Assembly: GCA_000002445.1 (NCBI GenBank)
Contig: CP000070.1
Coordinates: 960,001 to 1,024,000 of the forward strand
Reading direction: 5' to 3'
Origin: Trypanosoma brucei
Lineage: Eukaryota
DNA length: 64,000 nucleotides
Of the stretch, positions 21,365 to 59,310 are shown one piece after another. Below the pieces are notes generated by a model. The model was not told the DNA's origin, made no database searches, and saw nothing but the letters and a program-made list of their open reading frames with translations. The position numbers were made by a program, and so were the translations under genes. Within the stretch, counting starts at the first letter, position 1; every line of letters begins with the position of its first letter.

Positions 21365-22008
21365 CTTGAACCTCTTCTTTCCAGCTCCCCTTTCCTACTT
21401 TTTTGACAGCTCTACTACTGCTCTTTTTTTTTTCTGTTTACTCCCTTCGTTTGTTGATCCTATCTATCTATTTTGTTGCGGGACCACACACGACAACAGT
21501 AAACTATTACTTTCACACTAGTCACAAACTCTCACACTCTTTCTGCTCTTCTTTCGTCTACCACCCCGTACTTTTCCGCTTTCCCAAGCCTTTTTGCTGC
21601 GTATGCAATGGCTTCCACACTGTGTTTCCTCACAACACTCTTACTGCTTACGTACTGGGACCACACCAATCCAAAACAATAGTAAGCAGCGAAGTATCAG
21701 CAAAAAAATAAATAAAACAGTGGATGAGAACGGAAATGACAAGAAAAATTACCCATTATATGATGCCAATGGAATGTTTGACGGTAGAAAATAAGATAGC
21801 ATAGCTAGCCATTTACCCATACAGGCACCATGAAACGGTGTCCTCTCAAGAAGGGGCGGGAAAGGGGGGAGTAACAGCACCCAATTCATCTCATGTCCTT
21901 CCCTCTCCTTCATCACAATGTGAATGCACCGATTCACATACAAATATCTTCCTGTGCACTTTTCCTTGCGAATTGCTTCGACCATACACTTTTGGTTGAA
22001 CCCCCTTT

Positions 22009-22605
22009 TCACTGTTGGCCCCATGGGACGCGCGCCGGTAGCAGTCGCCGCACATCCTCTCGCTCCGCCAACAGGTGTTCTTCCACAAACCGCCGCAAAG
22101 CCGGCATTACATTCGGGTTTTCAATCTTGAGTTCCTCACATGTCTCAAGCCACAGGAAGTTAGACGCATTTAGCTTCCCTTTGCTTGGTGTATCGTCAAT
22201 GAGAACAGTGTTCTGTGGCGTTGCTATTTCTGGAAATCGACGGTACACCTCACGCAGGTCCTTCACCGTGGCGTGTTGGTCATCTCGGCTCGTGGCGCTC
22301 ACACGTCGGAACTCATCAGCAGTCGTGTGTTCGCGGGACCAGACAAAAGCAAAGTTCACCTTTTGTGCATGTTGACTGAAAACAGCCTCCATCAGGGGAG
22401 TGGTATTGCGCGCGGTGGTGGAGCTCCACACGGCAAGGGTGCAGTGCTGCTGTAGGGCGAGGAGTGTCTCCATGGCACTGGGGCGAAGCCACACGCGACT
22501 CATCCCAACGGTTATGGCGCCCCCCGGCATGCCTGACGGAACGCGACTGGCATGTATACGCTCCAAAAGCGTCCCGCGCAGTCCAAAAACCAGCAATGGT
22601 CTCAT
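22009..22605 (-). CDS. NIF/FCP1-like (HAD superfamily) domain protein with degenerate catalytic motif (probable pseudophosphatase)
   Basis: The alignable NIF-domain blocks are LLVFGLRGTLLER (vs LVLDLDETLVHS), RPSAMETLLAL...LAVWSS (vs RPGVDEFL...IFTAS) and VLIDDTPSKGKLNASNFLWLE (vs VIIDNSP...NAIPI..W). The DxDxT nucleophile/acid pair is GLRGT here. The track start at 22659 is GTG; the first ATG is at 22605 (verified). Confidence 0.6.
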   Translation of the reverse strand: MRPLLVFGLRGTLLERIHASRVPSGMPGGAITVGMSRVWLRPSAMETLLALQQHCTLAVWSSTTARNTTPLMEAVFSQHAQKVNFAFVWSREHTTADEFRRVSATSRDDQHATVKDLREVYRRFPEIATPQNTVLIDDTPSKGKLNASNFLWLETCEELKIENPNVMPALRRFVEEHLLAEREDVRRLLPARVPWGQQ

Positions 22606-24321
22606 CGCAAGGAATACTATACGAACAACTGTGACCTGTATATCGATCGAAACACGCACCGAAATGAGTCTGTGTGATGCAAAACGAATTCGTTACTGTG
22701 ACTATTGTTGCTGCTGAAATTGTGTGAGGTGTTGGCAGCTACACAGTTGCCTCTCAGTCCGCCCTCCGTGCACGCCCACGTAGGCAAAAACGAAAACCTT
22801 CGTGCCTCACACGATCTACGCTAATTCTCCGCACGACTAGTGGGCGTGGAACAACAACTGACCGGATATATATATGTATATATATATTGTTTGGAGATAC
22901 GAAGAAACAACGGACAGCCCCTTTCTTCTTTTATGTCCGCTGAGTTCCGCTAGCACCACCGCCTCAGCTATTCTCCTTCCCCACCCAACACGCCAAGAAA
23001 CAGAACAAAAGACACGTTACTACTCCCCAGCTTAGCAGAAAGGGGTACGGAGAGAATATGGCTCCCACTTCACACAAACGCTGACACACGTATGCATTCA
23101 GATGGGGAAAAGCAGAGAGTGAAAGGGAGTACATAAACCATGCAAATGCACAAACAGAACGAAAACAAGCGAGGGAACAGGCGCAATTACGTGAACCTCC
23201 CCTCCCACTTAATGCTGAAGATTGTGAGGTGGTGCAGCAGTCGTTACGTGGTCTTACATGCACTCATACATATGAACAAGCGTGTATTTTCTTACTATGC
23301 AAACAAAGCGTGTTACACGTTAGTTTGTGAAGGCATAATTCACACAATCCGTCAGATGTGTTCCATAGTGAACAACCACCACACGGTCCTCTGTCTACAC
23401 AAGAATGCGACATCACCGTAACACCCGCAGCTTGCATGCATTAACGAATAAATACAGGAAACTAATAAATCAATTTTATCCCTTCCTCCTCGTCCGTTAT
23501 ACCTTTTCATCCGCTTCTCTTCCCTTCAAAACTTACTGTAAGATCATCTGGTTCCCTCTTTGGACCGTGATACCCCCTCCCACCTCAACCACCACCACCG
23601 TTATCTTTACAATTCCCTGCTGTTACTTTTATTATCATTATTATTGCTTCCTTACTGTTATATAGTTGGGAGGGGGAAGGGGAGAATCTTTCTTCGTAGA
23701 CCGTATCTCGAAACGCTCCTTCATGTGAAACCCGTCGCTCTCCATAGCTACTTTGTGTTTTGTTGTTCTTTACCTGCCACTGTTGCTACCCATTCTTTTC
23801 TCCTCCATCCTTTCTTCAATGTTCTCGCTACCATTCATTGTTATTGTTGCCCCAACTGCTATCAACATGACAGGCAATGAAAATACATATGCTTCAAAAT
23901 AGGGGGAAATGGAAGAACGAAAGAAGTCGACAAACGCTGTCGTCCGCTCATTCCTCGGACTATTTTTTTTTTCCACCCTCCGCCACTTCGTATGCACCGC
24001 GCACAAACGCAAACACAAGCCGATCCCTCCCCCCCCCCGTGCGGGAACAAATGAAGAGTGAGAAAAGCGAAATGGGGAGAAAAAAAAAAGAGACGGACAA
24101 CACACCGGAACAAGCGAGGCGCAAGGAAAAAAAAAAACGGAGCGGTGTGGAAGGAAGGAGGGCAGGACACAAGTCGAAAATAGAGAGGAAATTAAACAAC
24201 AATAAAGAGTGCGGCGCTCCCCACGCAGGCGACGGTCAGGGGGGAAAAATGTTGTCCAGGGCAATCAGAAAAATAAAAGGGCTGTACCCCGTCAGTGATT
24301 CATATAGGAAGAAGAGACATA

Positions 24322-38726: not shown

Positions 38727-41700
38727 CTATTTTCCAATATTAATTATCTTTCGCGTTAACTTATAAGGTTCTTCGCCAACGACGAAGCCACTCAACAGTT
38801 TCCTCCTTAAATAACTTAAGCGAATATTCAAAACAGCGCACTCCCTCTCAAAAACATCCAACCTCTGTTGAAGTTCATTCCGTTCAGCCTCCACAGTTTC
38901 CAGATTACGCTCCACAGCAGCTCTCGCATCCTCGGAATTACGAAGTTGCGATTTCAGATCATTGCTTGTAGCGTCCAACCTCTGTTGAAGTTCATTCCGT
39001 TCAGCCTCCACAGTTTCCAGATTACGCTCCACAGCAGCTCTCGCATCTTCGGAATTACGAAGTTGCGATTTCAGATCATTGCTTGTAGCATCCAACCTCT
39101 GTTGAAGTTCATTCCGTTCAGCCTCCACAGTTTCCAGATTACGCTCCACAGCAGCTCTCGCATCCTCGGAATTACGAAGTTGCGATTTCAGATCATTGCT
39201 TGTAGCGTCCAACCTCTGTTGAAGTTCATTCCGTTCAGCCTCCACAGTTTCCAGATTACGCTCCACAGCAGCTCTCGCATCTTCGGAATTACGAAGTTGC
39301 GATTTCAGATCATTGCTTGTAGCGTCCAACCTCTGTTGAAGTTCATTCCGTTCAGCCTCCACAGTTTCCAGATTACGCTCCACAGCAGCTCTCGCATCCT
39401 CGGAATTACGAAGTTGCGATTTCAGATCATTGCTTGTAGCGTCCAACCTCTGTTGAAGTTCATTCCGTTCAGCCTCCACAGTTTCCAGATTACGCTCCAC
39501 AGCAGCTCTCGCATCCTCGGAATTACGAAGTTGCGATTTCAGATCATTGCTTGTAGCGTCCAACCTCTGTTGAAGTTCATTCCGTTCAGCCTCCACAGTT
39601 TCCAGATTACGCTCCACAGCAGCTCTCGCATCTTCGGAATTACGAAGTTGCGATTTCAGATCATTGCTTGTAGCATCCAACCTCTGTTGAAGTTCATTCC
39701 GTTCAGCCTCCACAGTTTCCAGATTACGCTCCACAGCAGCTCTCGCATCCTCGGAATTACGAAGTTGCGATTTCAGATCATTGCTTGTAGCGTCCAACCT
39801 CTGTTGAAGTTCATTCCGTTCAGCCTCCACAGTTTCCAGATTACGCTCCACAGCAGCTCTCGCATCCTCGGAATTACGAAGTTGCGATTTCAGATCATTG
39901 CTTGTAGCATCCAACCTCTGTTGAAGTTCATTCCGTTCAGCCTCCACAGTTTCCAGATTACGCTCCACAGCAGCTCTCGCATCCTCGGAATTACGAAGTT
40001 GCGATTTCAGATCATTGCTTGTAGCGTCCAACCTCTGTTGAAGTTCATTCCGTTCAGCCTCCACAGTTTCCAGATTACGCTCCACAGCAGCTCTCGCATC
40101 CTCGGAATTACGAAGTTGCGATTTCAGATCATTGCTTGTAGCGTCCAACCTCTGTTGAAGTTCATTCCGTTCAGCCTCCACAGTTTCCAGATTACGCTCC
40201 ACAGCAGCTCTCGCATCCTCGGAATTACGAAGTTGCGATTTCAGATCATTGCTTGTAGCGTCCAACCTCTGTTGAAGTTCATTCCGTTCAGCCTCCACAG
40301 TTTCCAGATTACGCTCCACAGCAGCTCTCGCATCCTCGGAATTACGAAGTTGCGATTTCAGATCATTGCTTGTAGCATCCAACCTCTGTTGAAGTTCATT
40401 CCGTTCAGCCTCCACAGTTTCCAGATTACGCTCCACAGCAGCTCTCGCATCCTCGGAATTACGAAGTTGCGATTTCAGATCATTGCTTGTAGCGTCCAAC
40501 CTCTGTTGAAGTTCATTCCGTTCAGCCTCCACAGTTTCCAGATTACGCTCCACAGCAGCTCTCGCATCCTCGGAATTACGAAGTTGCGATTTCAGATCAT
40601 TGCTTGTAGCGTCCAACCTCTGTTGAAGTTCATTCCGTTCAGCCTCCACAGTTTCCAGATTACGCTCCACAGCAGCTCTCGCATCCTCGGAATTACGAAG
40701 TTGCGATTTCAGATCATTGCTTGTAGCGTCCAACCTCTGTTGAAGTTCATTCCGTTCAGCCTCCACAGTTTCCAGATTACGCTCCACAGCAGCTCTCGCA
40801 TCCTCGGAATTACGAAGTTGCGATTTCAGATCATTGCTTGTAGCGTCCAACCTCTGTTGAAGTTCATTCCGTTCAGCCTCCACAGTTTCCAGATTACGCT
40901 CCACAGCAGCTCTCGCATCCTCGGAATTACGAAGTTGCGATTTCAGATCATTGCTTGTAGCATCCAACCTCTGTTGAAGTTCATTCCGTTCAGCCTCCAC
41001 AGTTTCCAGATTACGCTCCACAGCAGCTCTCGCATCCTCGGAATTACGAAGTTGCGATTTCAGATCATTGCTTGTAGCGTCCAACCTCTGTTGAAGTTCA
41101 TTCCGTTCAGCCTCCACAGTTTCCAGATTACGCTCCACAGCAGCTCTCGCATCCTCGGAATTACGAAGTTGCGATTTCAGATCATTGCTTGTAGCGTCCA
41201 ACCTCTGTTGAAGTTCATTCCGTTCAGCCTCCACAGTTTCCAGATTACGCTCCACAGCAGCTCTCGCATCCTCGGAATTACGAAGTTGCGATTTCAGATC
41301 ATTGCTTGTAGCGTCCAACCTCTGTTGAAGTTCATTCCGTTCAGCCTCCACAGTTTCCAGATTACGCTCCACAGCAGCTCTCGCATCTTCGGAATTACGA
41401 AGTTGCGATTTCAGATCATTGCTTGTAGCGTCCAACCTCTGTTGAAGTTCATTCCGTTCAGCCTCCACAGTTTCCAGATTACGCTCCACAGCAGCTCTCG
41501 CATCTTCGGAATTACGAAGTTGCGATTTCAGATCATTGCTTGTAGCATCCAACCTCTGTTGAAGTTCATTCCGTTCAGCCTCCACAGTTTCCAGATTACG
41601 CTCCACAGCAGCTCTCGCATCTTCGGAATTACGAAGTTGCGATTTCAGATCATTGCTCGTAGCATCCAACCTCTGTTGAAGTTCATTCCGTTCAGCCTCC

Positions 41701-44138
41701 ACAGTTTCCAGATTACGCTCCACAGCAGCTCTCGCATCCTCGGAATTACGAAGTTGCGATTTCAGATCATTGCTCGTAGCGTCCAACCTCTGTTGAAGTT
41801 CATCCCGTTCAGCCTCCACAGTTTCCAGATTACGCTCCACAGCAGCTCTCGCATCCTCGGCTTGCCTTGCTTTGTTGGTTATTGCGGCTTCTGATTGTTT
41901 TGTGGTATCAAGTTGTTTTTTTGCTTCTTCTATTTCTTTTTCTAACATTAGAATTTTTTGTTCTAGTTTTTTTGTCATCTGGTGTTGTTCCATCTGAAAT
42001 AATTTATGATTTTTTTCCATTGCGGCTCTTTGGTCGAAATGATGCTGGTTACATTTGGTAAGTTGAGTCTCAACTTCAGTGCCCACCGCCGTTAGTAGCT
42101 CTGCCTGCCAAAGATTGTGCATGCCAATAGTTGTAAGGAGGTGATTTATTGTTTTAATGTGACGATGTTCTGTTTCTTCCAGTTTCAGGTCGAGAAACTG
42201 GGCTATCTCTTCAAGTTCATTTCTTTCAAGTCGGAATACCTCGAGGTCGCTGAGAATTCGTTGTTGTGCCTCACACTCTTCAAGCAGCTTTTGCATGCGG
42301 TGAGAAAGTTCCTCGTTCTGTTGCTGTAATTCTGTATGCTTTTCTGAGGACTGCTGTGAATTACAAAGTGCAGCGCTCAATTGCTCCTGCCTTTCACGAA
42401 GGATGTGTAGTGCTTCCTCTCGTGAATGACGCTCTTGCTCAAGTTCTGACATCACCCTGGACAATTGTTGTTGACTGCTCAACATTTCAGCATCTTTCCT
42501 CTCTCTAATCCCCTCTATCTCTGCTCTGTGTTGCCGCACCTTCTCTAAGAGCTCCTGTTCTCGCTGTGCATACTCATCTTTCAAACGCTGACTCATTTCT
42601 TCATGATATTCAGCGCGGCGTTTCGACTCTTCAACCTGCCGTTCGAGCTCAGTAGCCTTGATCAGGAGTTCCTCACGCTCCACCTCGGTTGCATACAACA
42701 TTTTCTCACGAATTATATTCTTCTCTCGTTCCTTTTCCAGTGCATGAAGGTCAGCAGCACGCTTCTGCGCTTCCGCCTCGAGAAGCACAAGCTTCTCCTC
42801 CAGCTCACGGACGTACGTGGGGTCCTTACCTTTGATGTCTTGCCGCATTTGCTCCATCTGTTCCTCAAGTTCACGAATACGACGCGCGCGGGGGTCCTCA
42901 TTGACTCTGGTCATGTTTACGATATCACGGGCACGTGATGCGTATCGTAGCGTGCTCAGAGTTTCCTCGTAGTTCAGAGCACTCGGGCTCACCGTCGCGA
43001 TCATAAAGGTCTTCGAGTTCCCACCGAGTGAATCTTTCAAAATGTATGTAAGCTTAGACTCCCGATAAGGTGGTGTCGACCATTGTGATGATTTATTCTT
43101 CGCCATATCTGCCAGCATATCGATCACGCGCCCGAGTGTTGTCAATGAGAGATTAATATATCGTGCCTCGTTAAACTGCTGCCCAACAACCTCTGATTGC
43201 GCAACGCGCTCAGATCCAGCAAGGTCCACCAAGTTCATTCGGCTACTCATCCCGGCGGTGGTGATCACTTGCCCAGATGCCGTTTGTGTAGACCGCTCCT
43301 CATGTAGTATCAACATGAAGATAGCATGGCTCCTGCTGCTGCGGTCGTTCATCTTCGTTGAGGCCGTGTGTCGCACACGATTCCCCAACTCGATCAGTTC
43401 CACAACTTCCTCCACAGACGACACCTCTTGCAGTCTCTGTCCTTCGATAAAAACACCCATCGTGGGATGTTCACGCACATCAACGAACACATCCTCCCTC
43501 GATCCCTTCCGCCGCCGAGCCAGGAGGTCAGACACACGCTCGTTATACACTTCAACATACCCAACTGTCACCTTCCACCTTGAGTGGCCCTTTCCTTCGA
43601 TTCGAGCACGCTTCTCGAATATCTCTAGGCAAAGACGCGGTATCACCCCAGCATCCACACCGGACACAGAACCCGGATCTCCTCCCATCATTGTGTACGT
43701 CTTACCACTTCCCGTTTGTCCGTAAGCAAAAAGACATGAGTTGTACCCGTTGAAGGCATGCATCACAAGTGGGCGACCAATCGCTTCATACACTTCCAGC
43801 TGCCCCGCGGGCGGGAGACCACCCTCATCGGTACAACCACAGGAACAAAAAATGTTGTCAAATTGGAATGTTTGCGCCCGTGGGCACTGACTACTTTTTG
43901 AGTGGTGATCAATCAGCGTTATGGTCGAATACGATGTATTGGCTCGGAGTGCGAGTTTGTGCGTTCCCGACATTTCTGAAGTGTTTTGCGGCCGTACTCT
44001 TACAGCTACTTTAATAGACTCATCGCACGCGTTCGTCGTCATTTCGGTTGTTGTTAATGAGTTCCTACTTTCGTCGGTCATCGTTGAGTTATTTTTTCCC
44101 GAGTTTTGTTCCCCTGCCCTCCTTATATTACTTATCAT
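38727..44138 (-). CDS. Kinesin (N-terminal motor domain) with long coiled-coil stalk and ~26 tandem 39-aa repeats (K39-antigen-like kinesin)
   Basis: Motor motifs [25 protein letters not shown] (P-loop), SSRSHAIF (switch I), LVDLAGSER (switch II). This is followed by ~400 aa of coiled coil, then the reiterated repeat NSEDARAAVERNLETVEAERNELQQRLDATSNDLKSQLR. ATG verified at 44136-44138 (an alternative ATG lies at 44081). Confidence 0.9.
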   Translation of the reverse strand: MISNIRRAGEQNSGKNNSTMTDESRNSLTTTEMTTNACDESIKVAVRVRPQNTSEMSGTHKLALRANTSYSTITLIDHHSKSSQCPRAQTFQFDNIFCSCGCTDEGGLPPAGQLEVYEAIGRPLVMHAFNGYNSCLFAYGQTGSGKTYTMMGGDPGSVSGVDAGVIPRLCLEIFEKRARIEGKGHSRWKVTVGYVEVYNERVSDLLARRRKGSREDVFVDVREHPTMGVFIEGQRLQEVSSVEEVVELIELGNRVRHTASTKMNDRSSRSHAIFMLILHEERSTQTASGQVITTAGMSSRMNLVDLAGSERVAQSEVVGQQFNEARYINLSLTTLGRVIDMLADMAKNKSSQWSTPPYRESKLTYILKDSLGGNSKTFMIATVSPSALNYEETLSTLRYASRARDIVNMTRVNEDPRARRIRELEEQMEQMRQDIKGKDPTYVRELEEKLVLLEAEAQKRAADLHALEKEREKNIIREKMLYATEVEREELLIKATELERQVEESKRRAEYHEEMSQRLKDEYAQREQELLEKVRQHRAEIEGIRERKDAEMLSSQQQLSRVMSELEQERHSREEALHILRERQEQLSAALCNSQQSSEKHTELQQQNEELSHRMQKLLEECEAQQRILSDLEVFRLERNELEEIAQFLDLKLEETEHRHIKTINHLLTTIGMHNLWQAELLTAVGTEVETQLTKCNQHHFDQRAAMEKNHKLFQMEQHQMTKKLEQKILMLEKEIEEAKKQLDTTKQSEAAITNKARQAEDARAAVERNLETVEAERDELQQRLDATSNDLKSQLRNSEDARAAVERNLETVEAERNELQQRLDATSNDLKSQLRNSEDARAAVERNLETVEAERNELQQRLDATSNDLKSQLRNSEDARAAVERNLETVEAERNELQQRLDATSNDLKSQLRNSEDARAAVERNLETVEAERNELQQRLDATSNDLKSQLRNSEDARAAVERNLETVEAERNELQQRLDATSNDLKSQLRNSEDARAAVERNLETVEAERNELQQRLDATSNDLKSQLRNSEDARAAVERNLETVEAERNELQQRLDATSNDLKSQLRNSEDARAAVERNLETVEAERNELQQRLDATSNDLKSQLRNSEDARAAVERNLETVEAERNELQQRLDATSNDLKSQLRNSEDARAAVERNLETVEAERNELQQRLDATSNDLKSQLRNSEDARAAVERNLETVEAERNELQQRLDATSNDLKSQLRNSEDARAAVERNLETVEAERNELQQRLDATSNDLKSQLRNSEDARAAVERNLETVEAERNELQQRLDATSNDLKSQLRNSEDARAAVERNLETVEAERNELQQRLDATSNDLKSQLRNSEDARAAVERNLETVEAERNELQQRLDATSNDLKSQLRNSEDARAAVERNLETVEAERNELQQRLDATSNDLKSQLRNSEDARAAVERNLETVEAERNELQQRLDATSNDLKSQLRNSEDARAAVERNLETVEAERNELQQRLDATSNDLKSQLRNSEDARAAVERNLETVEAERNELQQRLDATSNDLKSQLRNSEDARAAVERNLETVEAERNELQQRLDATSNDLKSQLRNSEDARAAVERNLETVEAERNELQQRLDATSNDLKSQLRNSEDARAAVERNLETVEAERNELQQRLDATSNDLKSQLRNSEDARAAVERNLETVEAERNELQQRLDATSNDLKSQLRNSEDARAAVERNLETVEAERNELQQRLDATSNDLKSQLRNSEDARAAVERNLETVEAERNELQQRLDVFERECAVLNIRLSYLRRKLLSGFVVGEEPYKLTRKIINIGK
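38857..41870. repeat. Tandem array of ~25.7 copies of a 117-bp unit (inside the kinesin CDS)
   Basis: Unit 'tccaacctctgttgaagttcattccgttcagcctccacagtttccagattacgctccacagcagctctcgcatcctcggaattacgaagttgcgatttcagatcattgcttgtagcg'. The period was verified at 38857, 38974 and onwards. The only variant sites are C/T in 'gcatc(c/t)tcgg', G/A in 'gtagc(g/a)tcc' and 't(t/c)gtagc'. Confidence 0.95.
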
Positions 44139-44572
44139 TTATACGATATTGAAGTCTACTTGTGTGATGGGTGTCGCTCGTTGGGAGGAATGTGCCCAAT
44201 CTCCCTTCAAAGGCTGTTTTGTTATTAGACCTTCAACACCTGTCACGGTGTATTGTGGCGACACACGGGGAAGGCAATCTAAAAAAAATAAACTGACGGG
44301 AGGTGAAGAATTTAATGGGGCTACAAAATAATTGTAAAGGCCATCAACAAAGAGGAGAGAGGCACAGCTATGCCCATTTTCCGTCGTTGATATTCGTGAC
44401 GTGTGGCCACGGGCCAACACAGTAGGTAATAAGACACTGACTACAACCCACGTATGACTTGAATTCCTCCCGGACGCCACTTTCGAAGTATATCGGATCT
44501 GGAGGAAGCCTAAAATGTTTTCCAATCTCGCACAAACCTAGCCGTGCCCGCTATTGCGCCAAGATCCAGGTA

Positions 44573-44729
44573 GCGGTATCACCCCAGCATCCACACCGGA
44601 CACAGAACCCGGATCTCCTCCCATCATTGTGTACGTCTTACCACTTCCCGTTTGTCCGTAAGCAAAAAGACATGAGTTGTACCCGTTGAAGGCATGCATC
44701 ACAAGTGGGCGACCAATCGCTTCATACAC
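44573..44729 (-). pseudogene. Orphan 157-bp exact copy of the kinesin motor-domain segment (P-loop region) located ~435 bp upstream of the kinesin start codon
   Basis: Positions 44573-44729 are identical to 43637-43793 ('gcggtatcaccccagcatccacaccggac...cgcttcatacac'). The copy encodes [51 protein letters not shown]. The flanks diverge, leaving no intact ORF beyond a 75-aa fragment (track 44538..44765). Confidence 0.8.
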
Positions 44730-44928
44730 ACATCCAGCTGGTGATCCCACTTTTTTGAAACACACGCAGGACCATTCGTTAATCTTGCAAATCAGACCTC
44801 TCCAGCAGTAAACAGGAGAAAGGGGGCGAGCTGCGGTTTAAAGTGCATACAAAAACGCTGAGACATGGACATTCGGAAGAAAAGTGATTTCGTAGCTTTT
44901 CTCAAATGGCCGGCCGATTGTATAGACT

Positions 44929-47913
44929 CTACACTCGCCGAGGCGCAGAAGAACCGTCCACCGCCTCAAGAGGGGTAGCCGCGCCGCCATCCCATAAGAA
45001 CCTCAGAGCTCTCTGCACTGAACACATGGTAAGGATGTAGGAGGCTTTGCGTTGAAGACCGCCCTGCGGCTGAAGTCCAGAAACAAGTGAAAGTGGATCG
45101 TGTGATTCACTGGAGCCACAGTGAACCGGGGTACCAGCCACTGTATCGCGTGGATCACGAAGCTCATAATACCATGCCCGTAGCAAAGTGTAGCGTATAC
45201 GCTCAAATAACTCCTCGATGCTCGACTTCAAATTGAGTTTTGGGGGTTTAATGGAGCAGAGGTTGCAGTTGGTGTAGTGAAGAACGTCGGTTTTCAGTTC
45301 CTCTTCCACAGCCAAAAAAAGTTGCTCCTTGCTCTCTCTGCATGGCAAACCCTCAAGGGCAGCAGGACCGAGAGGTAACCGCAGAAATGCAAAACGACAG
45401 TTCTTTGATATTTCTTCACCTGCATGGTCCGACAACCACTTTGTTGCAACCGCCCACGATATGTTGGCGTTTGAGGATAACCAGTGGAGCAGCATCGGTG
45501 GGAAAACGGCGCGCGCACCACACTTTTTGAGTGACCTACTCAGGTTACCGCTTGCCTTCAACACCCCAGCCTTTGTCACACTTTCACTTGTAGCTGTGTG
45601 GCCCCACTCGGTTCTTGCCTCTTCATGTTGTGTCATCGCCTTCATAGTCCAGAAGAGCCAGACAACGAGGACCGGTTCATCAAAGAGGGTGGATGGAATC
45701 TCTGACAACAGCTTTAGCCACTGAAGCGCATCGTCATGGCACCCACTTCGGGGCGCTTTGTCGCATCCTTTAACTAGTCCCAGACTCGCAACAGCCATGG
45801 TAAACGAGTCAACAGCTCCCTCGATGGCAAGGTACGTGCGGGAGTGTTGATGAAGTGCCTCCGGTACCTCCTCACACTTCCCCCTCAGTGGTGTGGACCC
45901 GCCTCCCCTAATTGCATCGATAGTGAGGCGAAACAAAACAGCAGCATCGCCGGGACGCTGACGCTCCGTGATCATGTAACAGATGACGTCGAAAAGCAAG
46001 ACGGGCATTTCCACCACAAGTTCGGGCACGTCCCCCTCCAGTAGTGGCTCCTTACACATGGATAAAAGTAGATCGACAACTTGTGGGTACCGTGGTTCGC
46101 CTACAAACTCCAGAAGCTCAAAAAGGAGGTGTTTCCTGTCGCCGGAGTACAACTTTTGCGAAAAATACTTTCTCATTACCCCGACTGCCTCTTCAGGTCT
46201 ACACCGCTCGTTTTCCTTGCACAAAGCGGCAACCTCAATGCAAGCCTGGCGTACAGAAAATTCTTCAGCTACCCTATGAAATCCACCCCTGCGAAGGGTA
46301 TCCACCACTACCTCTTGCACATGCAAGCCAAGGGCAAAGTTGCACGGCAGCAACCGCTTTTCTACAACCTCTTCTCTGAAAAGAGAAGGTGTTAGTCGGG
46401 CAGCTAGCGCAGCAACAACCTCGGGACAGAGCAAGGCCGCAAACGATGCGCACGACAAGCAAGCAGCAGAGTCACTGCATCCAGCGGACAAAAGGGATGA
46501 CCAGTCATCCAGCATCTTGAGTACGTCTTCTGACGCTGACCCTTTGGCGATTAATCGAGTAAGGAGCAACAATTTTGACGCAATGTGGGGCGACTGCCGC
46601 CCCGCGAGCGGCCGAATCAAATAGGGGTTGGCCCATGTTTGTGCTAATCGGGCACAAAACGCGAAGTCGGCACCACGTGTGGCCACCTCCACTAGTCGGT
46701 GAAAAACTTCTTCTTCCTCCGCCTGCACATCTCCTCTTCCCTCCACGGCAAAAGCCGTGAGGCCGACAAACTGCAGGACCTCAAGACTGCTCTCCTCCAG
46801 CATCAGTTTCATGCGTAAGGGAGTGAGGTCAGATGCACAGTTCCCATACTCTCCCCCAGAGTTCCCATCCGCCGCCATTGTTAACCACGGAATCCTCTCA
46901 TCTCTCTCCACAGTGTCAGTGCCACCAACAGCGCACTCAGGGGGTAAGGGGTAATCGGACGAAGCTGGGGAAAGCATCCTCGCTAACGCACACCTCGGTT
47001 CAGCTTTCCCCTTGAGCATACTCCAGTACGTCTCCCATTCCGTTAACAGCATGCCCATCAACGGCGCCAACGAAGGGGGTTCGATACACTTCCGGTAGTG
47101 CACATCGTGACCCATCTTCGTCAGCACATATTTGACCTCGCAGCGTGTGTACATTTTGTGAAGCTCGATCAGATATGAGTTTAAAAGATTGTAATGATGC
47201 AGGTTGTGAACAGTCCGCAAAACATCCGGCCATCGACCCCTTTGACCGTTATGTTCAAGGGATAAATTGATGATGACACAAGGGGCCGAAAGAACGGACA
47301 GCAGACCTTTCAAGAACACACATCGGTCCTTATCTTCTTCGTGATCCAAAAAGCGCCCACCACTGGCGTCGGCACTCGTTTTTCCATCTGCGCGTGCTTG
47401 CGATGAGTTCCTCAGCTTCCTCACGGCAAATTGCAGTCTATGATACAGTGGTCTAAGTGTCGACTGGTGTTCGGCACATCGAAGCAAAAACAATGTCGCA
47501 AACGGCAGTTCCAAGTCGGAAACATCATTAGCAATGCAGTGGATCGAATTCGACTCCTTCATTGATGCAGGCTTTGGGGGCGCCCCGTCCAGAACAGCGT
47601 CGCCACGAGGAGGAAGAAAAGGAATGGAACAATGCCTGACTGAGTCGCATGACACAGAATCACACGAGTCTCCGGAAGATACACTACGTAGCTGAAGGTA
47701 GAGAAAAAATATGGCTTCGGCAGCGACAGGGAGACGTCGCTTGTGCAAAAAGTCATAACAAGTAAGTGCGGACCTCCAGCAATGCATTCGCGCGCATATG
47801 AGCTCCGTCGTTGACAATGTCCAATGCGGCCGTGAGGTACCTACTTTGGGCAACCCTCTGCCGTGCAACATCAATTTCAAAATACCATGCAGTGGTGTTT
47901 GGGGAAATGGCAT
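44929..47913 (-). CDS. Large hypothetical protein (~994 aa), Leu-rich/helical, no recognised catalytic motif
   Basis: ~3 kb uninterrupted ORF with non-repetitive, coding-like composition. The track start at 47922 is GTG; the first ATG is at 47913 (verified). Confidence 0.6.
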   Translation of the reverse strand: MPFPQTPLHGILKLMLHGRGLPKVGTSRPHWTLSTTELICARMHCWRSALTCYDFLHKRRLPVAAEAIFFLYLQLRSVSSGDSCDSVSCDSVRHCSIPFLPPRGDAVLDGAPPKPASMKESNSIHCIANDVSDLELPFATLFLLRCAEHQSTLRPLYHRLQFAVRKLRNSSQARADGKTSADASGGRFLDHEEDKDRCVFLKGLLSVLSAPCVIINLSLEHNGQRGRWPDVLRTVHNLHHYNLLNSYLIELHKMYTRCEVKYVLTKMGHDVHYRKCIEPPSLAPLMGMLLTEWETYWSMLKGKAEPRCALARMLSPASSDYPLPPECAVGGTDTVERDERIPWLTMAADGNSGGEYGNCASDLTPLRMKLMLEESSLEVLQFVGLTAFAVEGRGDVQAEEEEVFHRLVEVATRGADFAFCARLAQTWANPYLIRPLAGRQSPHIASKLLLLTRLIAKGSASEDVLKMLDDWSSLLSAGCSDSAACLSCASFAALLCPEVVAALAARLTPSLFREEVVEKRLLPCNFALGLHVQEVVVDTLRRGGFHRVAEEFSVRQACIEVAALCKENERCRPEEAVGVMRKYFSQKLYSGDRKHLLFELLEFVGEPRYPQVVDLLLSMCKEPLLEGDVPELVVEMPVLLFDVICYMITERQRPGDAAVLFRLTIDAIRGGGSTPLRGKCEEVPEALHQHSRTYLAIEGAVDSFTMAVASLGLVKGCDKAPRSGCHDDALQWLKLLSEIPSTLFDEPVLVVWLFWTMKAMTQHEEARTEWGHTATSESVTKAGVLKASGNLSRSLKKCGARAVFPPMLLHWLSSNANISWAVATKWLSDHAGEEISKNCRFAFLRLPLGPAALEGLPCRESKEQLFLAVEEELKTDVLHYTNCNLCSIKPPKLNLKSSIEELFERIRYTLLRAWYYELRDPRDTVAGTPVHCGSSESHDPLSLVSGLQPQGGLQRKASYILTMCSVQRALRFLWDGGAATPLEAVDGSSAPRRV

Positions 47914-53651: not shown

Positions 53652-56600
53652 GGCACTTATATATATACGTCCGAATATATATATATTAGAAATATATACA
53701 GCCCGCTTGTTTGCTTCCTTACTGCTACTACTACCTTTAAAGTATAAATCACTTTAACCACGAGTACCGGCGTGGGGAATTTCAAAAAGGTAAGGGTCAA
53801 TATTTCACGAAACGAACCAAATACGGAGAGGAAAAAGAAAAAAGAAAAAGTTGCTCCCCTTCTTACGTCCCCCTTTTTTTGAGGCACAATCTCCCAGTCA
53901 ACCTATAAAATAGGAAGCCAAGCGGATGACAAAAAGATGCTCCTCAATTCAGAATTTCGTTATATCATACATAATACGACACTTTAAAAAACGGTATCCA
54001 TATGCAGCGAGTCTCAGGCACGCAGAGAAAAAACGGATATAACGATTGTAGTCACCAATAAGACCAACATCAAATATATATATATATATAACTTGCACGG
54101 AACCTTACCGGTAGATTCGCTAGAAGTAGGAAAAACAGAAGTTAGTGTTCATTTTTTAAAAAAGGGCATCCAAGCACATGTACAAGATGTGGTTTAAAAA
54201 ACACATACACACAACTAGGCAAGAAAACGAACAGAAAATCGCGATGAGTGGAGCCATTTACGCTTTGTGGATGTTTACGGGAAGCTGCCCAGCAGTAGCC
54301 GGTAAATAACAATGTCACGTCTATGACTCCTCAGAAGTAGAATTTCAGGGATGAGCACAAGTCAGAAGAATGCGGTGACAGACGAAAACCAGGAGAGTCA
54401 ACAGTAGCCTCGCAAGCCCCATAACCACTCGTAAACCAAATTGACCCCCCCCCCCCCCGAAGACAAGCAACGAGACAGACATAACCCCACAGCACTACAG
54501 GAGACTGGAATACAAGTTGCCGACGCGGAGCCTTACCGGGAGTTACCTTGGGCCGATGTCGACACATTCGGCACCTCCGTGTGCGGACGTGGCGCCACAA
54601 CTGCTCCTTAGTAACACCGAAAAAAAGCGGAGCTTTTGCAGGCTCCCCAAAGTCCAAAACTGTAAACGATTCCTTCATTCCTAGACGTTCTGAAAGATCC
54701 TTTGTGGGCGCCAACGAGCCACTCCTTAGCAAAGCAACGGCAACAACCAAAAGCTGCATAAGCGACACGGGTCCGATCGAACGAAGAAAAACCAAGCCTT
54801 AGTGCACGACGTTCCCAAATTTGCCGCCTGCAGAGAATCGAAGGGCAGCTTTTGTTCGTGTGTCGATGTTTTTGATTTTGTCTTTGTTGAAGCGCAAGCG
54901 CTGAATGGCAGAACAGAATCAACAAAGGAAATGGAAAAGATGCCCCACCAGAGGAAACTCGCCTGACGCGACGGCGCCCACCGGCCACACGCAATTTCAA
55001 CCACAACATCGCCGACGCCAGCTTAGCCGTCCATCGCAGCAGCACCACTAACGCGCACGCAGGTGGATACGACCTCACGTGAATAAAACGGCATCAGTGA
55101 CGTAGCACTTGTGCATCCGTAAAACTACCGCTGGTGCGCGCTATGCGACACAACGTTCTGAAGGAGCAAAAACCCACCCAAAGACACGCATCACCTTCAA
55201 CTGCCAGAATCATACACTCAGCGAACACAATAGTCAACCCCAATCCCCGCGGTTGCTCCACTTCCTCACCGAATGGGGATTATTTTTTCGAACCTCGCTT
55301 GGAGATGACCCATTGGGGAATCAGGGAGATGTTTAACGGTGTCTACCCACCTCTTAATCAAACAGTGAGGCACATCACTGGCAGATCCAACCAACCATAA
55401 GCGTCAGACGGCAAAACACGTCACTTACTGACCGCACACCTTTCTGTAGGTTCCGCGTTTCTGCGCTTTCCAAGCGAATACCGGCCACCAGAAAAGAGAA
55501 GGCGCCCCATCATGATGCATTGCCGCGTCTGAGCCTACGAAACTGATCGTGCAAAGCGCAATCCTCATTAGGTGGAAGGATTGTAGCAGCAGACGATCCC
55601 GTTGTGGACGAAAGCATTCCTCCGGCAAATGAAAACTCCCCAAGGGATACAAAGCGCTTTTGCTGGCACCGACGACTGCAGCCGGCCGCTTCCCACTTTA
55701 TTTTGCAGCGACCTCAGACACTCACTTTCCTGTTCGACTGGAAGAAGTTGGGAGGGCATTGTAATCATGAAGGCGGTTGCACGATACGTTGAAGGGGCTC
55801 CCCACGGTTTCGAATCGTCGGTTGTTTATCATACGCATGGACGCACACTCCCTTAGGCGGCAAACGGAAACCAGAGTGTCCTACGGAAGGGTAGAGTTTC
55901 CTCAAAAAAAAAAAAGAACGCAACATCGGAAGCGTATCTGCTATTCTCGATGCAATAAAATGATTAGCTCGTGCGCATTTTCACTTCGGAAAGAAACATG
56001 CACTACGAGAACCCCACTGCTGCGTCTGCCAGTTCACGTTGAAAACAAATTTACGCCATTTTTCCGCAGGTGGGAGACCTTCTAGGAACCTTTCTTCGCT
56101 TCTGCCTTTCTAACGGTGACCACGCCTTGCATATTAACGCGTCCCTTTTGTTCACTTCCGGTGCCCCCCCCCACGGTGGAACTATTGCTGCTTTCAAAGA
56201 ATTCAATGACACATACAGAATCTTAGTACCCACGGGTTGCTCACGGTGATGACTGTTACGCTGATACTAACCAACACCTACTCACATGGTCCCTTTGTTT
56301 CGGCCTCGTAAGCAGCCGCAGGGCGCGAACGAGCAATTATATACAAAAAAGTAAGGCACCTACGTCTGAACATTTGTTTTACCTAGAGCGGAAAAAAGAT
56401 AGGGTGTGTCCTCCCCGATCTTCTTGAGGGAGAGTTTGGCCAACCTCGTAGGGAAGTTTTCCCCGCCCATGTCGAATGCCCTATCGAGGCGGTAGGATAC
56501 ACCGCCGCCAGGACGAACCCAGACACCCGCACGCGTCCTGGTCTTCGGGGATTGGGAAGGGCTGACAACTTTGTGAAAGGGATAAAAGGTAACTTTATCG

Positions 56601-59310
56601 TTTCCCCGTGTGAAAAAGAGTATTCGTACGCTCATTGGGGGGCTCAAACGCGCCTCCTTTAGTGTATTCAAACTGTTGCTGATTTTGAGTTCGAGGATTC
56701 TTATCACAGCATAGGTCTGATTTTACGTGGAATGCGACTGAATACCGGGTGGCTCCCCCTACCGAATACAAGCACGTTGGCAAAGTGCCTTTGAGAAACG
56801 AAGGGTGAGCTCTGGACTTCGCAGAAAATGGATATGCACAATGAAGGGGCACAACGCATAGTGATTCCTTGACGACATAACACCGGAGTGGCACAACCTT
56901 TTTAGTGTTCACGAGTGTCGACACTGTAAGGGGGTGGTTTTTGCGTAAGGTTCACGAAAAACAGGAGTGTGGAAAGGCATCAGTTGAGCCAACAGTTGAA
57001 TAGATGTTGAAACTCTTACTTATCCCAACACATTTACCATAACCAGCTACGGCCACGACGCCAGCACTGGAAGCAACACGTTCACCCGAAGGCATGCAGG
57101 TACCGGGTGCGCATATGAATTCGCGCTGCCGGCCACGACATCCAACCACACAGCTGGACATTGTACGAGTGAGTATTGTACAGTGGTACTCGGCAGAGAA
57201 CATGAGAATAACTAATGCAGGGGAAGGCGCGAGGAGGTTTTAAGAGCGAAAATGGTTGTCACCTCTGGACATAACAGTCCGCGGTGATTGTGAGTCCTCA
57301 AACTGAAGACCGGAACTGAGGTCAACCAACGATCGTCGCTGGACCACATTCGGGTTCAACACCATTCTTGATGCTGAAAGGGCTCATTTTCTTTTTACTG
57401 TTGTGGGGTATGCTTTCGATGGAAGATAAAGGGGGCGCTAAAAGAGTTTAGCAGCGCACATACGCACAAAGAAACGGAATAGTTAAGTGGAAGTGCCACG
57501 TATCAAACACAAAGTACTTAAAGTGTCTACGCGCGAAGCGCGCGAAACAATGAAAGTTAAGAAAAATTGTGCAGCCAGTATCGCATAGTTGAGATTTAGT
57601 CCTGATTATTGTGTTTTGAATCCGTGTCCCTCCTGGTGGGATCCCTTTCCACCTCCAGATTAAGGTGGTCAACGAGTATCGGTTCGTCGTTCAACATTAC
57701 GCTCGTCCCCCTTTTTTTTCCTTTTATGCTTCCTCACCGGCGTTCCATCCTTATGAGTTGGCAATAAAGTCGCTGCGGGGTTGGGTGGGTTCCCACTCCC
57801 AACAAGTATCTGCGCCACCTCCCGGTTTGGCTAAAACTTTCGATATAACGGCTCCGGCTGACGCAAATATTCGTCTCGTCCTGTTTAGATTCACGTATAC
57901 ATGAGGAGAAGGGTGCAACTTTTCAGCCAAATTTTACATTCTTCAGTTTAAAAAGTTTTGCGTGGAAAGTGCGTTGTCCGCTGCCGAAATGACGGCACCT
58001 TTCAAACAACGTGCTCTACCCCATATTGCCCCCGTGATGCCTTTAGAGGTTGACGGTGCAGTAAATCCAACAAAAAGTCGCCGCACTCTGCCTTTTAGAG
58101 TGTTGCATTCCTTTTCTATTTTGTGTTGTCCCCTGTGCCACATATCTTTGGTTAGAGCGCTTTGTTCCACGCGTTTTGCTTCACAGTGCGGTCGTTGGAG
58201 AGTCCTTTTGAGTCCGCTATATTACCAGGAACGTGCCGTCACTCATATCCCCCTTTATTGCACCTTTCGCCTTTGGGTGTGTATCCCCACTGCATTGAAA
58301 GAGCCATAGCATACCGTCATACTGCACGCCACGCCGTCCGGCCACATGTCGGGCGGAGGCCGCGCCGCTATAGAATGGAGGGAAATATACCTGCACACTG
58401 TCCTTCAACAACCAAGATCGTGTGGCGCAATGTCGTGTCGAACACACCGGGAAGCACAAAAAAAAAACTCCTATAAGTTGGGCGCCGACGCCCCGGCATC
58501 CCCGTTCAATGATAAGTGACCCTTTGCGGCGGTGTTGATAGTTACCTCGCGTCTTTTTTTTTTTTAATTCACGGATAGGGAAAGCCCACAAATAGCGGGG
58601 CACTGTTTTGTACGCGCGTGCAGCCGTACCGCTCTAGGTTGGAGCCATTTCCTTCGCGCTTGGACGCCGGCTTTCACCTTTTCTTTACCCTGCCGCACAT
58701 ACCCAACGTGCCGTTACCAGCGCGGTGCACTGCGACGTGCTGATGAAGATTTTGCTGTTCTCTGCGGTGACACCAGGTGGTCGCACCGGTTTTTTGTGAC
58801 TCATGGCAAAGCAATGTAAAAATATCGAAAAAAAAGGGTAAATACTCCGATTTCCCCTGTGCGCAATTGGTTTCGGCGCTGCTCGCAGCCGACGCCAACA
58901 AACGGTCACCATGCTCAGTGTTCTGCAGTCCCCGCAGTTTTAGCGCAACATGTCCTGCATCAAGTCGTGTTAATCATGCGACGGCCTCGTCCTGTAGGCC
59001 TTGCGCCTCTGCCGGTTGGTCACACTGCGTGGGTTGAAGCTGTGGCTACCTAATCGCTGCGAACTTTAAAATGTCAGAAACCTTCCAGGGAACCTTGTTG
59101 AGTGAGCCGGCCTCGCCGTTTTAAGATTTATTAGTCCCGTGCGCCGGAGTTTGTGCACACCCTAGGGGCTGAATGCGTTTGCTTTTTTTTTTTCTTCATG
59201 TCATTGATGCTTTTATTCAAGGCTCGAGTGAGAACGGTGGGTAACTACTGCATTAGAAGATCATCTAAAGAGTGTTCAGAGTGTTTTGCTTTTGAACAAC
59301 ATGGGTTATC
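53652..59310. promoter_or_regulatory. Divergent strand-switch region between a leftward (minus) and a rightward (plus) gene array; candidate RNA pol II transcription start region
   Basis: All CDSs from 1 to 53651 are on the minus strand; the CDSs from 59311 onward are on the plus strand. The intervening 5.7 kb has no ORF above ~150 aa on any frame yet is mostly non-repetitive. It contains a C14 tract (54445-54458), a C9 tract (56164-56172) and a perfect 8-bp hairpin (56499-56532). Confidence 0.6.
54445..54458 (-). promoter_or_regulatory. Homopolymer C14 (G14 on the minus/leftward coding strand) inside the strand-switch region
   Basis: Read directly from the sequence: 'ttgacccccccccccccccgaag'. 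Confidence 0.5.

What the first reader, a model, noticed from the sequence alone, without database searches (positions are those of the whole stretch)
44573..44729. Exact 157-bp copy of the kinesin P-loop segment sitting in the kinesin's own upstream region
Positions 44573-44729 are 100% identical to 43637-43793 (coding [51 protein letters not shown]). Another ~10 near-identical bases follow an 'aca' insertion. The copy has the same orientation as the gene, lies ~435 bp 5' of the kinesin ATG, and has unrelated flanks, so it is not part of an intact second gene. Possible explanations are a relic of a tandem kinesin duplication with subsequent deletion, a gene-conversion or break-repair footprint, or an assembly mis-join at a repeated kinesin family member. 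Zero divergence suggests a very recent event or an artefact.
Basis: seen in the sequence. Interest (0 to 1): 0.55.

Follow-up and report, generated by a model that had tools for sequence, protein, structure and literature searches.

The report
Kinesin gene scrap upstream of kinesin
A 157-base piece of a Trypanosoma brucei kinesin gene is repeated exactly in the spacer just upstream of that gene; it is real and shared by several T. brucei-group genomes, but it looks like an ordinary non-coding scar of recombination rather than a working element.

Summary
Window 44573-44729 is an exact, same-orientation copy of 43637-43793, which is codons 116-167 (P-loop) of a K39-type kinesin on the minus strand. 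After a 1-substitution/2-nt indel, 8 more bases match. The flanks resemble nothing else.

The window is Trypanosoma brucei-group chromosome 7. The same two copies, with the same 936-bp spacing and the same junctions, occur in T. equiperdum OVI and T. b. gambiense DAL972. Two short-read graph contigs from other runs stop exactly 30 nt inside the intergenic copy. An assembly mis-join is therefore excluded, and the event predates the split of these three genomes.

Zero divergence is unremarkable, because local divergence among these genomes is only 0.25-1%.

In T. melophagium, T. theileri and T. vivax the syntenic locus holds 2-3 tandem K39 kinesins. T. vivax carries a truncated 745-bp kinesin piece in the same slot.

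My best reading (about 0.5) is the last remnant of an upstream array member, cut down by microhomology-mediated deletions and kept identical by gene conversion or recency. The main rival (about 0.33) is a de novo microhomology-primed templated insertion. The fragment covers 14% of the motor domain and cannot encode a motor. Interest is low.

The parts
44573..44729 (-). Intergenic copy: exact 157-nt duplicate of kinesin codons 116-167 (P-loop region).
   Evidence: Also present and exact in L004 (13185-13341) and L005 (12832-12988). Matches Pfam PF00225 positions 58-104 of 327 only.
44730..44740 (-). Diverged 5' tail of the copy. Gene sense reads CAGCTGGA + TGT, where the gene has CAGCTGGA + A. 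This is either eroded homology or the microhomology used at the junction.
   Evidence: 168-column alignment at 98.2%.
43637..43793 (-). Parental segment inside the kinesin CDS (nt 346-502).
43794..43802 (-). Parental counterpart of the 5' tail (CAGCTGGAA in gene sense).
38727..44138 (-). K39-type kinesin ORF of 1803 aa, with the motor domain at aa 47-406.
   Evidence: PF00225, 339 bits. Best named relatives are 'kinesin K39' of T. theileri and T. cruzi at 63-65% identity.
38857..41860 (-). 117-nt (39-aa) tandem array inside the kinesin, 25.7 copies.
44929..47913 (-). Upstream gene: conserved hypothetical protein of 994 aa, in the same 90% cluster as T. brucei TREU927 XP_846008.1. Its stop codon lies 200 bp 5' of the copy.
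44804..44833 (-). Polypyrimidine tract followed by AG, located between the upstream gene's stop and the copy. It could be a vestigial or alternative trans-splice acceptor (inference).
44279..44368 (-). Polypyrimidine tracts followed by AGs, downstream of the copy and 140-230 nt 5' of the kinesin ATG. This is the probable trans-splice acceptor region of the kinesin mRNA (inference).
44732..44737 (-). CTGGAT hexamer in the 5' flank/tail of the copy.
44564..44569 (-). CTGGAT hexamer 3 nt after the 3' end of the copy. Together with 44732-44737 it forms a possible target-site duplication or microhomology. The chance probability is 0.016-0.031, and the pairing was noticed post hoc.
44538..44699 (-). 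Mechanical 53-codon ORF ([53 protein letters not shown]), starting at the first ATG inside the copy. No evidence that it is translated.

Best explanation
The feature is a real, fixed, non-coding fragment of the adjacent K39-type kinesin gene. It lies in the 790-bp spacer between a conserved hypothetical gene and the kinesin on Trypanosoma brucei-group chromosome 7.

Most likely route: this locus ancestrally carried a tandem array of K39 kinesins whose members are kept near-identical by gene conversion. The T. brucei lineage contracted the array to one gene. The 157-168-bp piece is what remains of the most upstream member, which was either full-length or already truncated as in T. vivax today. 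Microhomology-mediated deletions removed both of its sides. Its 100% identity to the gene reflects homogenisation up to, or after, the deletions, together with the short time since.

Shown: the fragment is real, fixed in the three genomes examined, sharply bounded and unable to encode a motor. Tandem arrays and a truncated copy exist at the syntenic position in relatives. Inferred: the deletion route and a role for gene conversion. Also inferred: the fragment is now a neutral passenger, probably transcribed within the 3'UTR of the upstream gene's mRNA, because the strongest splice-acceptor-like tracts lie between it and the kinesin ATG.
For: Real and fixed: L004 (T. equiperdum) and L005 (T. 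b. gambiense) align gap-free with window 45100-41900 at 99.75% and 99.53%. Both carry both exact copies 936 bp apart. Logan contigs L001 and L003 both end at window 44700, exactly 30 nt into the copy. That is the behaviour expected of a k=31 de Bruijn graph at a repeat (my knowledge of Logan).

Array ancestry: T. melophagium has the upstream-gene ortholog followed by three tandem K39 kinesins. T. theileri has at least two, and a third P-loop match at L008 2947-3026. T. vivax has the ortholog, then a 745-bp truncated kinesin piece (L006 10016-10760), then two longer kinesins.

The T. vivax piece is 99.9-100% identical to its neighbours, has sharp boundaries and unique flanks, and has the same orientation. 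It spans the region homologous to the T. brucei fragment. Each species' fragment matches its own species' gene, while the two species differ by about 22% in this segment. That is the pattern of concerted evolution if the fragments are orthologous.

Feasibility: in T. brucei, end joining is exclusively microhomology-mediated and mostly deletional, with 65 of 110 survivors showing deletions (PMC3045614). Donors of 100-200 bp support templated gene conversion (PMC13233330).

The two differences lie at the extreme 5' edge and none lie in the 157-nt core. This fits conversion that cannot reach the tract ends.
Against: No trace of any further kinesin sequence, at DNA or protein level, remains in either flank. 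At least two separate clean deletions are therefore required.

Loss of an array member by homologous unequal exchange would be expected to leave no relic at all.

A CTGGAT hexamer flanks the fragment on both sides (chance 0.016-0.031), and an 8-nt match sits at the 5' junction. These look more like an insertion signature.

Without gene conversion, zero differences bounds the age at roughly three times the gambiense-window divergence. A relic dating from the T. vivax split therefore needs continuing conversion on only 157 bp.

The nearest outgroup, T. congolense, could not be examined.
Confidence: 0.5

Rival explanations
1. De novo templated insertion. A break or stalled fork in the spacer was repaired by microhomology-primed copying of about 160 nt from the kinesin gene 0.9 kb downstream. 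The 3' end ...CAGCTGGA(T) annealed to CAGCTGGA in the gene. The extended end then rejoined by microhomology. This happened in the T. brucei lineage shortly before the split of the genomes compared.
For: Both boundaries are sharp and the flanks are entirely unrelated. There is an 8-nt match at the 5' junction. The T that replaces the gene's A is the base expected if the primer end came from a CTGGAT target, and an extra GT is typical of slippage. CTGGAT is duplicated on both sides of the insert (P 0.016-0.031), and a TACC stutter occurs at the 3' junction. The template lies in cis, 0.9 kb away. The size falls within the 28-1084-bp range of MMEJ-associated copied segments in T. brucei (PMC3045614). 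Short templated insertions with junction homologies of about 9 bp are documented (PMC13233330). Zero divergence needs no further explanation.
Against: The documented T. brucei events need real homology on at least one side. Two-sided microhomology insertions were 0 of 110 in PMC3045614. The junction reading is post hoc, and no empty site is available. This model treats as coincidence that T. vivax has a kinesin fragment in the same slot, in the same orientation and overlapping the same segment. It likewise treats as coincidence that relatives have arrays where T. brucei has one gene.
Confidence: 0.33
2. A functional element retained by selection. One possibility is an RNA element shared between the upstream gene's 3'UTR (or a long kinesin 5'UTR isoform) and the kinesin CDS. 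Others are a 53-codon P-loop mini-ORF, or a standing gene-conversion donor for the P-loop region.
For: It is invariant in all genomes examined. T. vivax also keeps a P-loop-containing fragment in the same slot. A polypyrimidine tract plus AG lies just 5' of it. It is in frame with the kinesin ORF, since 936 = 3 x 312.
Against: The invariance is not significant: 0 of 10 variable sites where 2 are expected, P about 0.1. There is no ATG upstream of the fragment in frame. A direct repeat cannot form dsRNA. The T. vivax and T. brucei fragments differ in extent and in coding potential. T. melophagium has an intact gene in this slot rather than a fragment.
Confidence: 0.05
3. An assembly artefact: a mis-join or a chimeric read at a repeated kinesin family member.
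For: Exact identity and abrupt junctions are what a chimera would look like. The 3' junction was seen only in finished assemblies, not in an independent read-level contig here (one search found no such contig).
Against: Three independent assemblies share both junctions base for base, despite 2-11 SNPs in the surrounding 1.5 kb. One of them, DAL972, was built from Sanger reads (my knowledge). Two Illumina-derived Logan contigs from different runs cross the 5' junction and branch exactly at the repeat.
Confidence: 0.02
4. A retroposed (processed) copy of kinesin mRNA, made by ingi/RIME-type reverse transcriptase.
For: A short direct repeat (CTGGAT) flanks the insert. T. brucei has active non-LTR retroposons that make target-site duplications (my knowledge).
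Against: The fragment is internal: nt 346-502 of a CDS longer than 5.4 kb. It has no poly(A) or A-rich 3' end, no spliced-leader sequence and no mRNA 3' end. The flanking repeat is 6 nt, whereas ingi/RIME target-site duplications are about 12 nt (my knowledge).
Confidence: 0.02

Closest known systems
Truncated kinesin piece in the same intergenic slot of Trypanosoma vivax (GCA_021307395.1, SOPI01000403.1; locus L006 10016-10760)
   Same: It lies directly downstream of the ortholog of the same upstream gene and upstream of the complete K39-type kinesins. It has the same orientation, about 100% identity to the neighbouring genes, sharp boundaries and unique flanks. It includes the P-loop segment.
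   Different: It is 745 bp rather than 157-168 bp. It begins about 15 nt after an ATG and is annotated as a 256-aa gene. Two longer kinesins follow it, not one.
Tandem gene arrays of trypanosomatids homogenised by gene conversion, here the K39 kinesin arrays of T. melophagium, T. theileri and T. vivax
   Same: Same locus and same gene family. Paralogs are near-identical over long patches. A relic of such an array would look like this fragment.
   Different: T. brucei has a single complete gene. The fragment has no surrounding residual homology.
MMEJ-based deletion and one-sided MMEJ gene conversion in T. brucei (Glover, Jun & Horn 2011, PMC3045614)
   Same: The organism is the same. Junctions form at short, imperfect microhomologies. 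Copied ectopic segments range from 28 to 1084 bp. There is no classical NHEJ.
   Different: Those events were experimentally induced. The gene conversions had true homology on one side, whereas here neither flank is homologous.
Short templated gene-conversion insertions that build mosaic VSGs (Nature 2026, PMC13233330)
   Same: Templated copying of tens to hundreds of bases occurs in T. brucei. Junction identities are about 9 bp, and 100-200-bp donors suffice.
   Different: That process requires flanking homology around the break and acts within a gene family. The recipient here is a non-homologous spacer.
Templated insertions of polymerase-theta end joining / MMBIR in other eukaryotes (PMC7165422, PMC8421209; titles and abstracts only)
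   Same: Microhomology-primed copying from a nearby template in cis. The stutters and slippage I point to at the junctions are features I associate with such events from my own knowledge, not from these papers.
   Different: In my recollection, typical inserts are much shorter. The enzymology in trypanosomes is not established, and nothing here tests it.

Membership tests
Kinesin motor domain gene (Pfam PF00225): does the intergenic fragment qualify? | A complete motor domain (about 327 profile positions) including the P-loop, switch I and switch II. | tested here: not met
   The fragment's 99-codon open frame matches profile positions 58-104 only (61 bits). The parental protein matches positions 1-327 (339 bits).
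Kinesin motor domain gene (Pfam PF00225): does the intergenic fragment qualify? | An initiation codon and an ORF continuous with the domain. | tested here: not met
   There is no in-frame ATG 5' of the fragment. The first ATG is internal and gives 53 codons. T. b. gambiense and T. equiperdum have no gene model here.
K39-type kinesin (parental gene) | An N-terminal kinesin motor followed by a coiled-coil stalk and 39-aa tandem repeats. | tested here: met
   The motor is at aa 47-406. The 117-nt unit is repeated 25.7 times. The best named homologs are 'kinesin K39' of T. theileri and T. cruzi.
Assembly artefact | Junctions absent from independent data sets. | tested here: not met
   Both junctions are in L004 and L005. 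The 5' junction is in Logan contigs L001 and L003.
Relic of a tandem-array member (unprocessed pseudogene fragment) | It is adjacent to the parent, in the same orientation, and related species have an array at the syntenic site. | tested here: met
   It is a direct repeat 936 bp from the parent. Arrays are present in T. melophagium, T. theileri and T. vivax.
Relic of a tandem-array member (unprocessed pseudogene fragment) | Residual, decayed homology to the parent gene or its spacers beyond the conserved core. | tested here: not met
   Smith-Waterman scores of both flanks against the kinesin CDS, its 3' end and downstream region, and outgroup spacers are within shuffle expectation. tblastx found nothing.
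Relic of a tandem-array member (unprocessed pseudogene fragment) | A longer copy or a second gene at this position in the nearest outgroup (T. congolense). | not testable with these tools
   The ortholog CCC91497.1 was identified, but its contig is not retrievable.
Microhomology-mediated templated insertion / ectopic gene-conversion tract | Sharp junctions, with microhomology between the target and the template at the junctions. | tested here: inconclusive
   There is an 8-nt CAGCTGGA match at the 5' junction, and CTGGAT occurs on both sides. Without an empty site, the pre-insertion sequence is unknown.
Microhomology-mediated templated insertion / ectopic gene-conversion tract | An empty site in a close relative or in a polymorphic isolate. 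| not testable with these tools
   All five T. brucei-group data sets carry the fragment. No closer outgroup is available.
Retroposed (processed) copy | Derived from an mRNA 3' end with a poly(A) tract, or from a spliced-leader 5' end, with a flanking target-site duplication. | tested here: not met
   It is an internal CDS segment with no A-run at its 3' end and no spliced-leader sequence. Only a 6-nt flanking repeat is present.

The most novel reading that the evidence does not exclude
Salivarian trypanosomes may deliberately keep a P-loop-containing kinesin fragment between the upstream gene and the K39 kinesin, since T. brucei has 157 bp there and T. vivax has 745 bp. It could act as an RNA-level element that couples the two neighbouring mRNAs, for example through a shared binding site or shared small-RNA target, or as a separately trans-spliced mini-transcript from the polypyrimidine tract at 44804-44833. 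Alternatively it could be a resident gene-conversion donor for the motor's nucleotide-binding site.
Probability: 0.05. Interest if true: 0.6.

Novelty: new member of a known kind. Interest (0 to 1): 0.2.

Why it matters
The value is mainly practical and illustrative.

(1) It is a clean, datable example of a recombination or repair scar in the core, non-subtelomeric genome of T. brucei, next to a gene family that forms arrays in relatives. With the T. congolense locus it would show whether such scars arise by array erosion or by templated insertion.

(2) Two 157-bp direct repeats 936 bp apart bracket the kinesin's splice-acceptor region, its ATG and its first 115 codons. Recombination between them would produce a null allele. 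This predicts a possible deletion polymorphism.

(3) If the fragment lies in the upstream gene's 3'UTR, as I infer, three things follow. RNAi constructs or probes that cover kinesin nt 346-502 would also hit that mRNA. Short reads there would multi-map. Graph assemblies break there, which I did observe.

Tried and rejected
Exact-product look-ups failed for two window proteins, for the TREU927 ortholog and for the T. congolense ortholog. TREU927 and the nearest outgroup therefore could not be examined.

A search with the kinesin N-terminus, meant to find short-read contigs carrying the 3' junction, returned no near-identical proteins. Neither did the longer motor query. The T. brucei kinesin itself seems absent from that protein collection.

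Searches for decayed homology in the flanks were all at chance level. I compared them with the rest of the window, the kinesin CDS, the kinesin 3' end and downstream spacer, and the T. vivax and T. melophagium spacers. One weak hit (p about 0.005) against a T. vivax spacer I attribute to pyrimidine-rich composition, though I did not inspect the alignment.

A test for extra conservation of the fragment among genomes was not significant.

The retroposition, tandem 936-bp duplication and 'original exon' readings were considered and rejected on anatomy. There is no poly(A), only 157 bp of the 936 is repeated, and the upstream frame shows no kinesin N-terminal homology.

Literature searches for the T. 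brucei gene identifier or for a description of this kinesin gave nothing usable.

No tRNA genes were found in the window.

The T. rangeli 299-aa 'partial kinesin' is cut by the end of its contig and is not a true fragment.

Full report
**The observation**

Window 44573-44729 is an exact 157-nt direct repeat of 43637-43793. An 89-nt core occurs exactly twice in the window, against zero expected from shuffles.

A gapped alignment extends the match to 168 columns at 98.2%. On the gene's (minus) strand the gene reads CAGCTGGA-A-GTGTATG and the copy reads CAGCTGGA-TGT-GTGTATG. The 5' edge therefore carries one substitution and a GT-unit length difference, followed by 8 matching bases. The 3' edge is abrupt.

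It is the only dispersed repeat longer than 50 bp in the 64 kb.

**The parent gene**

The parental segment is nt 346-502 (codons 116-167) of a 1803-aa minus-strand ORF at 38727-44138. It includes the P-loop GQTGSGKT.

That ORF has a full Pfam kinesin motor at aa 47-406 and 25.7 copies of a 117-nt (39-aa) repeat. Its best named relatives are 'kinesin K39' proteins of T. theileri and T. cruzi.

**Position of the copy**

The copy lies in the 790-bp spacer between the stop codon of a 994-aa conserved hypothetical gene (44929-47913, minus) and the kinesin ATG at 44138. It sits 200 bp from the stop and 435 bp from the ATG.

**The organism**

The upstream protein belongs to a 90%-identity cluster with T. 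brucei TREU927 XP_846008.1, T. equiperdum and T. b. gambiense DAL972 proteins. The window aligns at 99.5-99.9% to T. equiperdum and to T. b. gambiense chromosome 7. The window is therefore T. brucei-group (Trypanozoon) chromosome 7. I could not determine the strain.

**Is it real?**

T. equiperdum OVI (L004) and T. b. gambiense DAL972 (L005) are gap-free colinear with window 45100-41900. Each carries both exact 157-nt copies at the same 936-bp spacing and with identical junctions. The surrounding 1.5 kb differs by 2 and 11 SNPs respectively.

Two Logan contigs from different runs, ERR7929164 and ERR7929162, run from the upstream gene through the 200 bp of unique sequence. Both terminate at window 44700, exactly 30 nt inside the exact repeat. 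A k=31 graph assembler does this where a repeat begins (my knowledge of Logan). The 5' junction and a second context for the repeat therefore both exist in those reads.

The 3' junction is supported by the three assemblies only. I found no independent short-read contig for it.

An assembly mis-join is effectively excluded, and no full second kinesin sits here in any of the three assemblies.

**Age**

Ten sites vary among the available genomes in the 790-bp spacer and none lies in the copy. Two would be expected, so P is about 0.1, which is not significant.

I took half the window-gambiense spacer divergence, about 0.5%, as the per-lineage unit, and counted 157 neutral sites in the copy plus about 38 synonymous sites in the gene. 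The probability of zero differences is then:
- 0.38 if the duplication is as old as that split;
- 0.14 at twice that age;
- 0.05 at three times that age.

'Zero divergence' is therefore unremarkable. The event is at least as old as the split of these three genomes. Without gene conversion it is not more than roughly three times older.

**Nothing else of a kinesin survives around it**

blastn (word size 7), tblastx and Smith-Waterman comparisons with shuffle controls find no residual similarity of either flank. I tested the kinesin CDS, its 3' end and downstream spacer, and the rest of the window.

**Relatives**

The gene order kinase, 311-aa protein, PQ-loop protein, upstream gene, kinesin is conserved.
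- T. melophagium has three tandem K39 kinesins directly after the upstream-gene ortholog.
- T. theileri has at least two, plus a third P-loop match.
- T. vivax has, in the very slot occupied by the T. brucei fragment, a 745-bp truncated kinesin piece followed by two longer kinesins.

The T. vivax piece (L006 10016-10760) corresponds to T. brucei aa 41-289. It is 99.9-100% identical to the two longer kinesins, has abrupt boundaries and has unique flanks.

The T. brucei 157-nt segment is about 78% identical to all three T. vivax copies, and its homologous region is nested inside the T. vivax fragment. Each species' fragment thus matches its own species' gene.

The T. congolense ortholog of the upstream gene was identified (CCC91497.1, 44% identity), but its contig could not be fetched.

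**Mechanism: two routes fit**

(a) Relic. The locus was ancestrally an array homogenised by gene conversion, and T. brucei reduced it to one gene. The most upstream member, possibly already truncated as in T. vivax, was cut down by two microhomology-mediated deletions. From a T. vivax-like configuration, deletions of roughly 0.45 and 0.9 kb would suffice; this is my estimate from the coordinates.

Published work makes this feasible. In T. brucei, chromosomal end joining is exclusively microhomology-mediated and mostly deletional (65 of 110 survivors). The authors link it to genome compaction (PMC3045614). Donors of 100-200 bp still support templated gene conversion (PMC13233330), so a 157-bp remnant could stay homogenised. 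The two changes confined to its extreme 5' edge would then be edge erosion.

(b) Templated insertion. A broken or stalled 3' end ...CAGCTGGA(T) in the spacer annealed to CAGCTGGA in the gene 0.9 kb away, copied about 160 nt and rejoined.

Points in its favour:
- The junction T is the base expected from a CTGGAT target, and the extra GT looks like slippage.
- CTGGAT flanks the insert on both sides. The empirical chance is 0.016-0.031, and I noticed the pairing post hoc.
- TACC is stuttered at the 3' junction.
- The size lies within the 28-1084 bp of MMEJ-associated copied segments.

Points against:
- Documented events had true homology on at least one side.
- Independent insertions into the same slot, in the same orientation and from overlapping segments, in both T. 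brucei and T. vivax would be a coincidence. My rough estimate of that coincidence is below 0.1.

I rate (a) at about 0.5 and (b) at about 0.33. That the feature is a genuine, non-coding recombination or repair scar, by either route, I rate at about 0.85-0.9.

**Function**

The fragment covers 47 of 327 motor-domain profile positions. It has no in-frame ATG 5' of it, and its first internal ATG opens only 53 codons. A direct repeat cannot form dsRNA with its parent.

Polypyrimidine tracts followed by AG lie at 44368-44279, between the fragment and the kinesin ATG. Another lies at 44833-44804, just 5' of the fragment.

In T. brucei, polyadenylation of the upstream mRNA is coupled to the downstream splice-acceptor tract and occurs roughly 100 nt 5' of it (general knowledge, not tested here). 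The fragment would then most likely sit in the 3'UTR of the upstream gene's mRNA. If the 44833-44804 tract is used instead, it would sit in a long 5'UTR isoform or in a vestigial mini-transcript. All of this is inference.

**Comparison with the known, and verdict**

This is an unprocessed gene fragment (pseudogene scrap) next to its parent. It is of the kind produced by array turnover or by microhomology-mediated repair, both documented in T. brucei.

It fails the membership tests for a kinesin gene, for a processed retrocopy and for an artefact. It is unannotated in the two annotated genomes I could inspect. It is a new member of a known kind.

Interest is low (0.2). The most novel reading still allowed is selective retention of a P-loop fragment in this slot across Salivarian trypanosomes. 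I rate that at about 5%.

Noticed in passing
window 38857-41860; L005 15701-22632: The kinesin's 117-nt (39-aa) array has 25.7 copies in the window. In T. b. gambiense DAL972 it has at least 59.2 copies and runs off the fetched locus. This is either a large copy-number polymorphism or repeat collapse in one assembly.
   Followed up: partly
L006 10016-10760 (T. vivax SOPI01000403.1): A truncated 745-bp kinesin piece, annotated as a 256-aa gene, sits directly after the upstream-gene ortholog. It is 99.9-100% identical to the two downstream kinesins, with abrupt boundaries and unique flanks. The third T. vivax kinesin shares only an internal 1239-bp identical patch with the second, which suggests patchy gene conversion.
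   Followed up: partly
L002 13268-22677 (T. melophagium JAJSEB010000022.1): The gene models look wrong. The first kinesin model starts at 13646 and omits the motor domain that is present in ORF 13268-17413. The second and third kinesins (17569-20040 and 20197-22677) are fused into one model, 17926-22677.
   Followed up: no
window ~2000-4000 and ~8000-16000: Low-GC stretches (31-35%, against 45-53% elsewhere) contain few long ORFs. They also hold short palindromic self-matches at 1830-1863, 9548-9591 and 11921-11969. Their nature was not examined.
   Followed up: no
window ~55000-59300: There is a strand-switch region. Long ORFs are on the minus strand up to about 55 kb and on the plus strand from 59.3 kb, and GC skew changes sign there. 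This is consistent with a divergent polycistronic transcription start region. No tRNA genes are present in the window.
   Followed up: no
L005 10001-12632 (T. b. gambiense DAL972): The upstream gene is recorded as an 874-aa 'LOW QUALITY PROTEIN', and the locus does not translate to the deposited product. The window, TREU927 and T. equiperdum all encode 994 aa.
   Followed up: no
L008 2947-3026 (T. theileri NBCO01000029.1): A third kinesin P-loop match lies at the start of a 1694-codon ORF (3003-8087) between the two annotated kinesins. Only small gene models are annotated in that interval.
   Followed up: no
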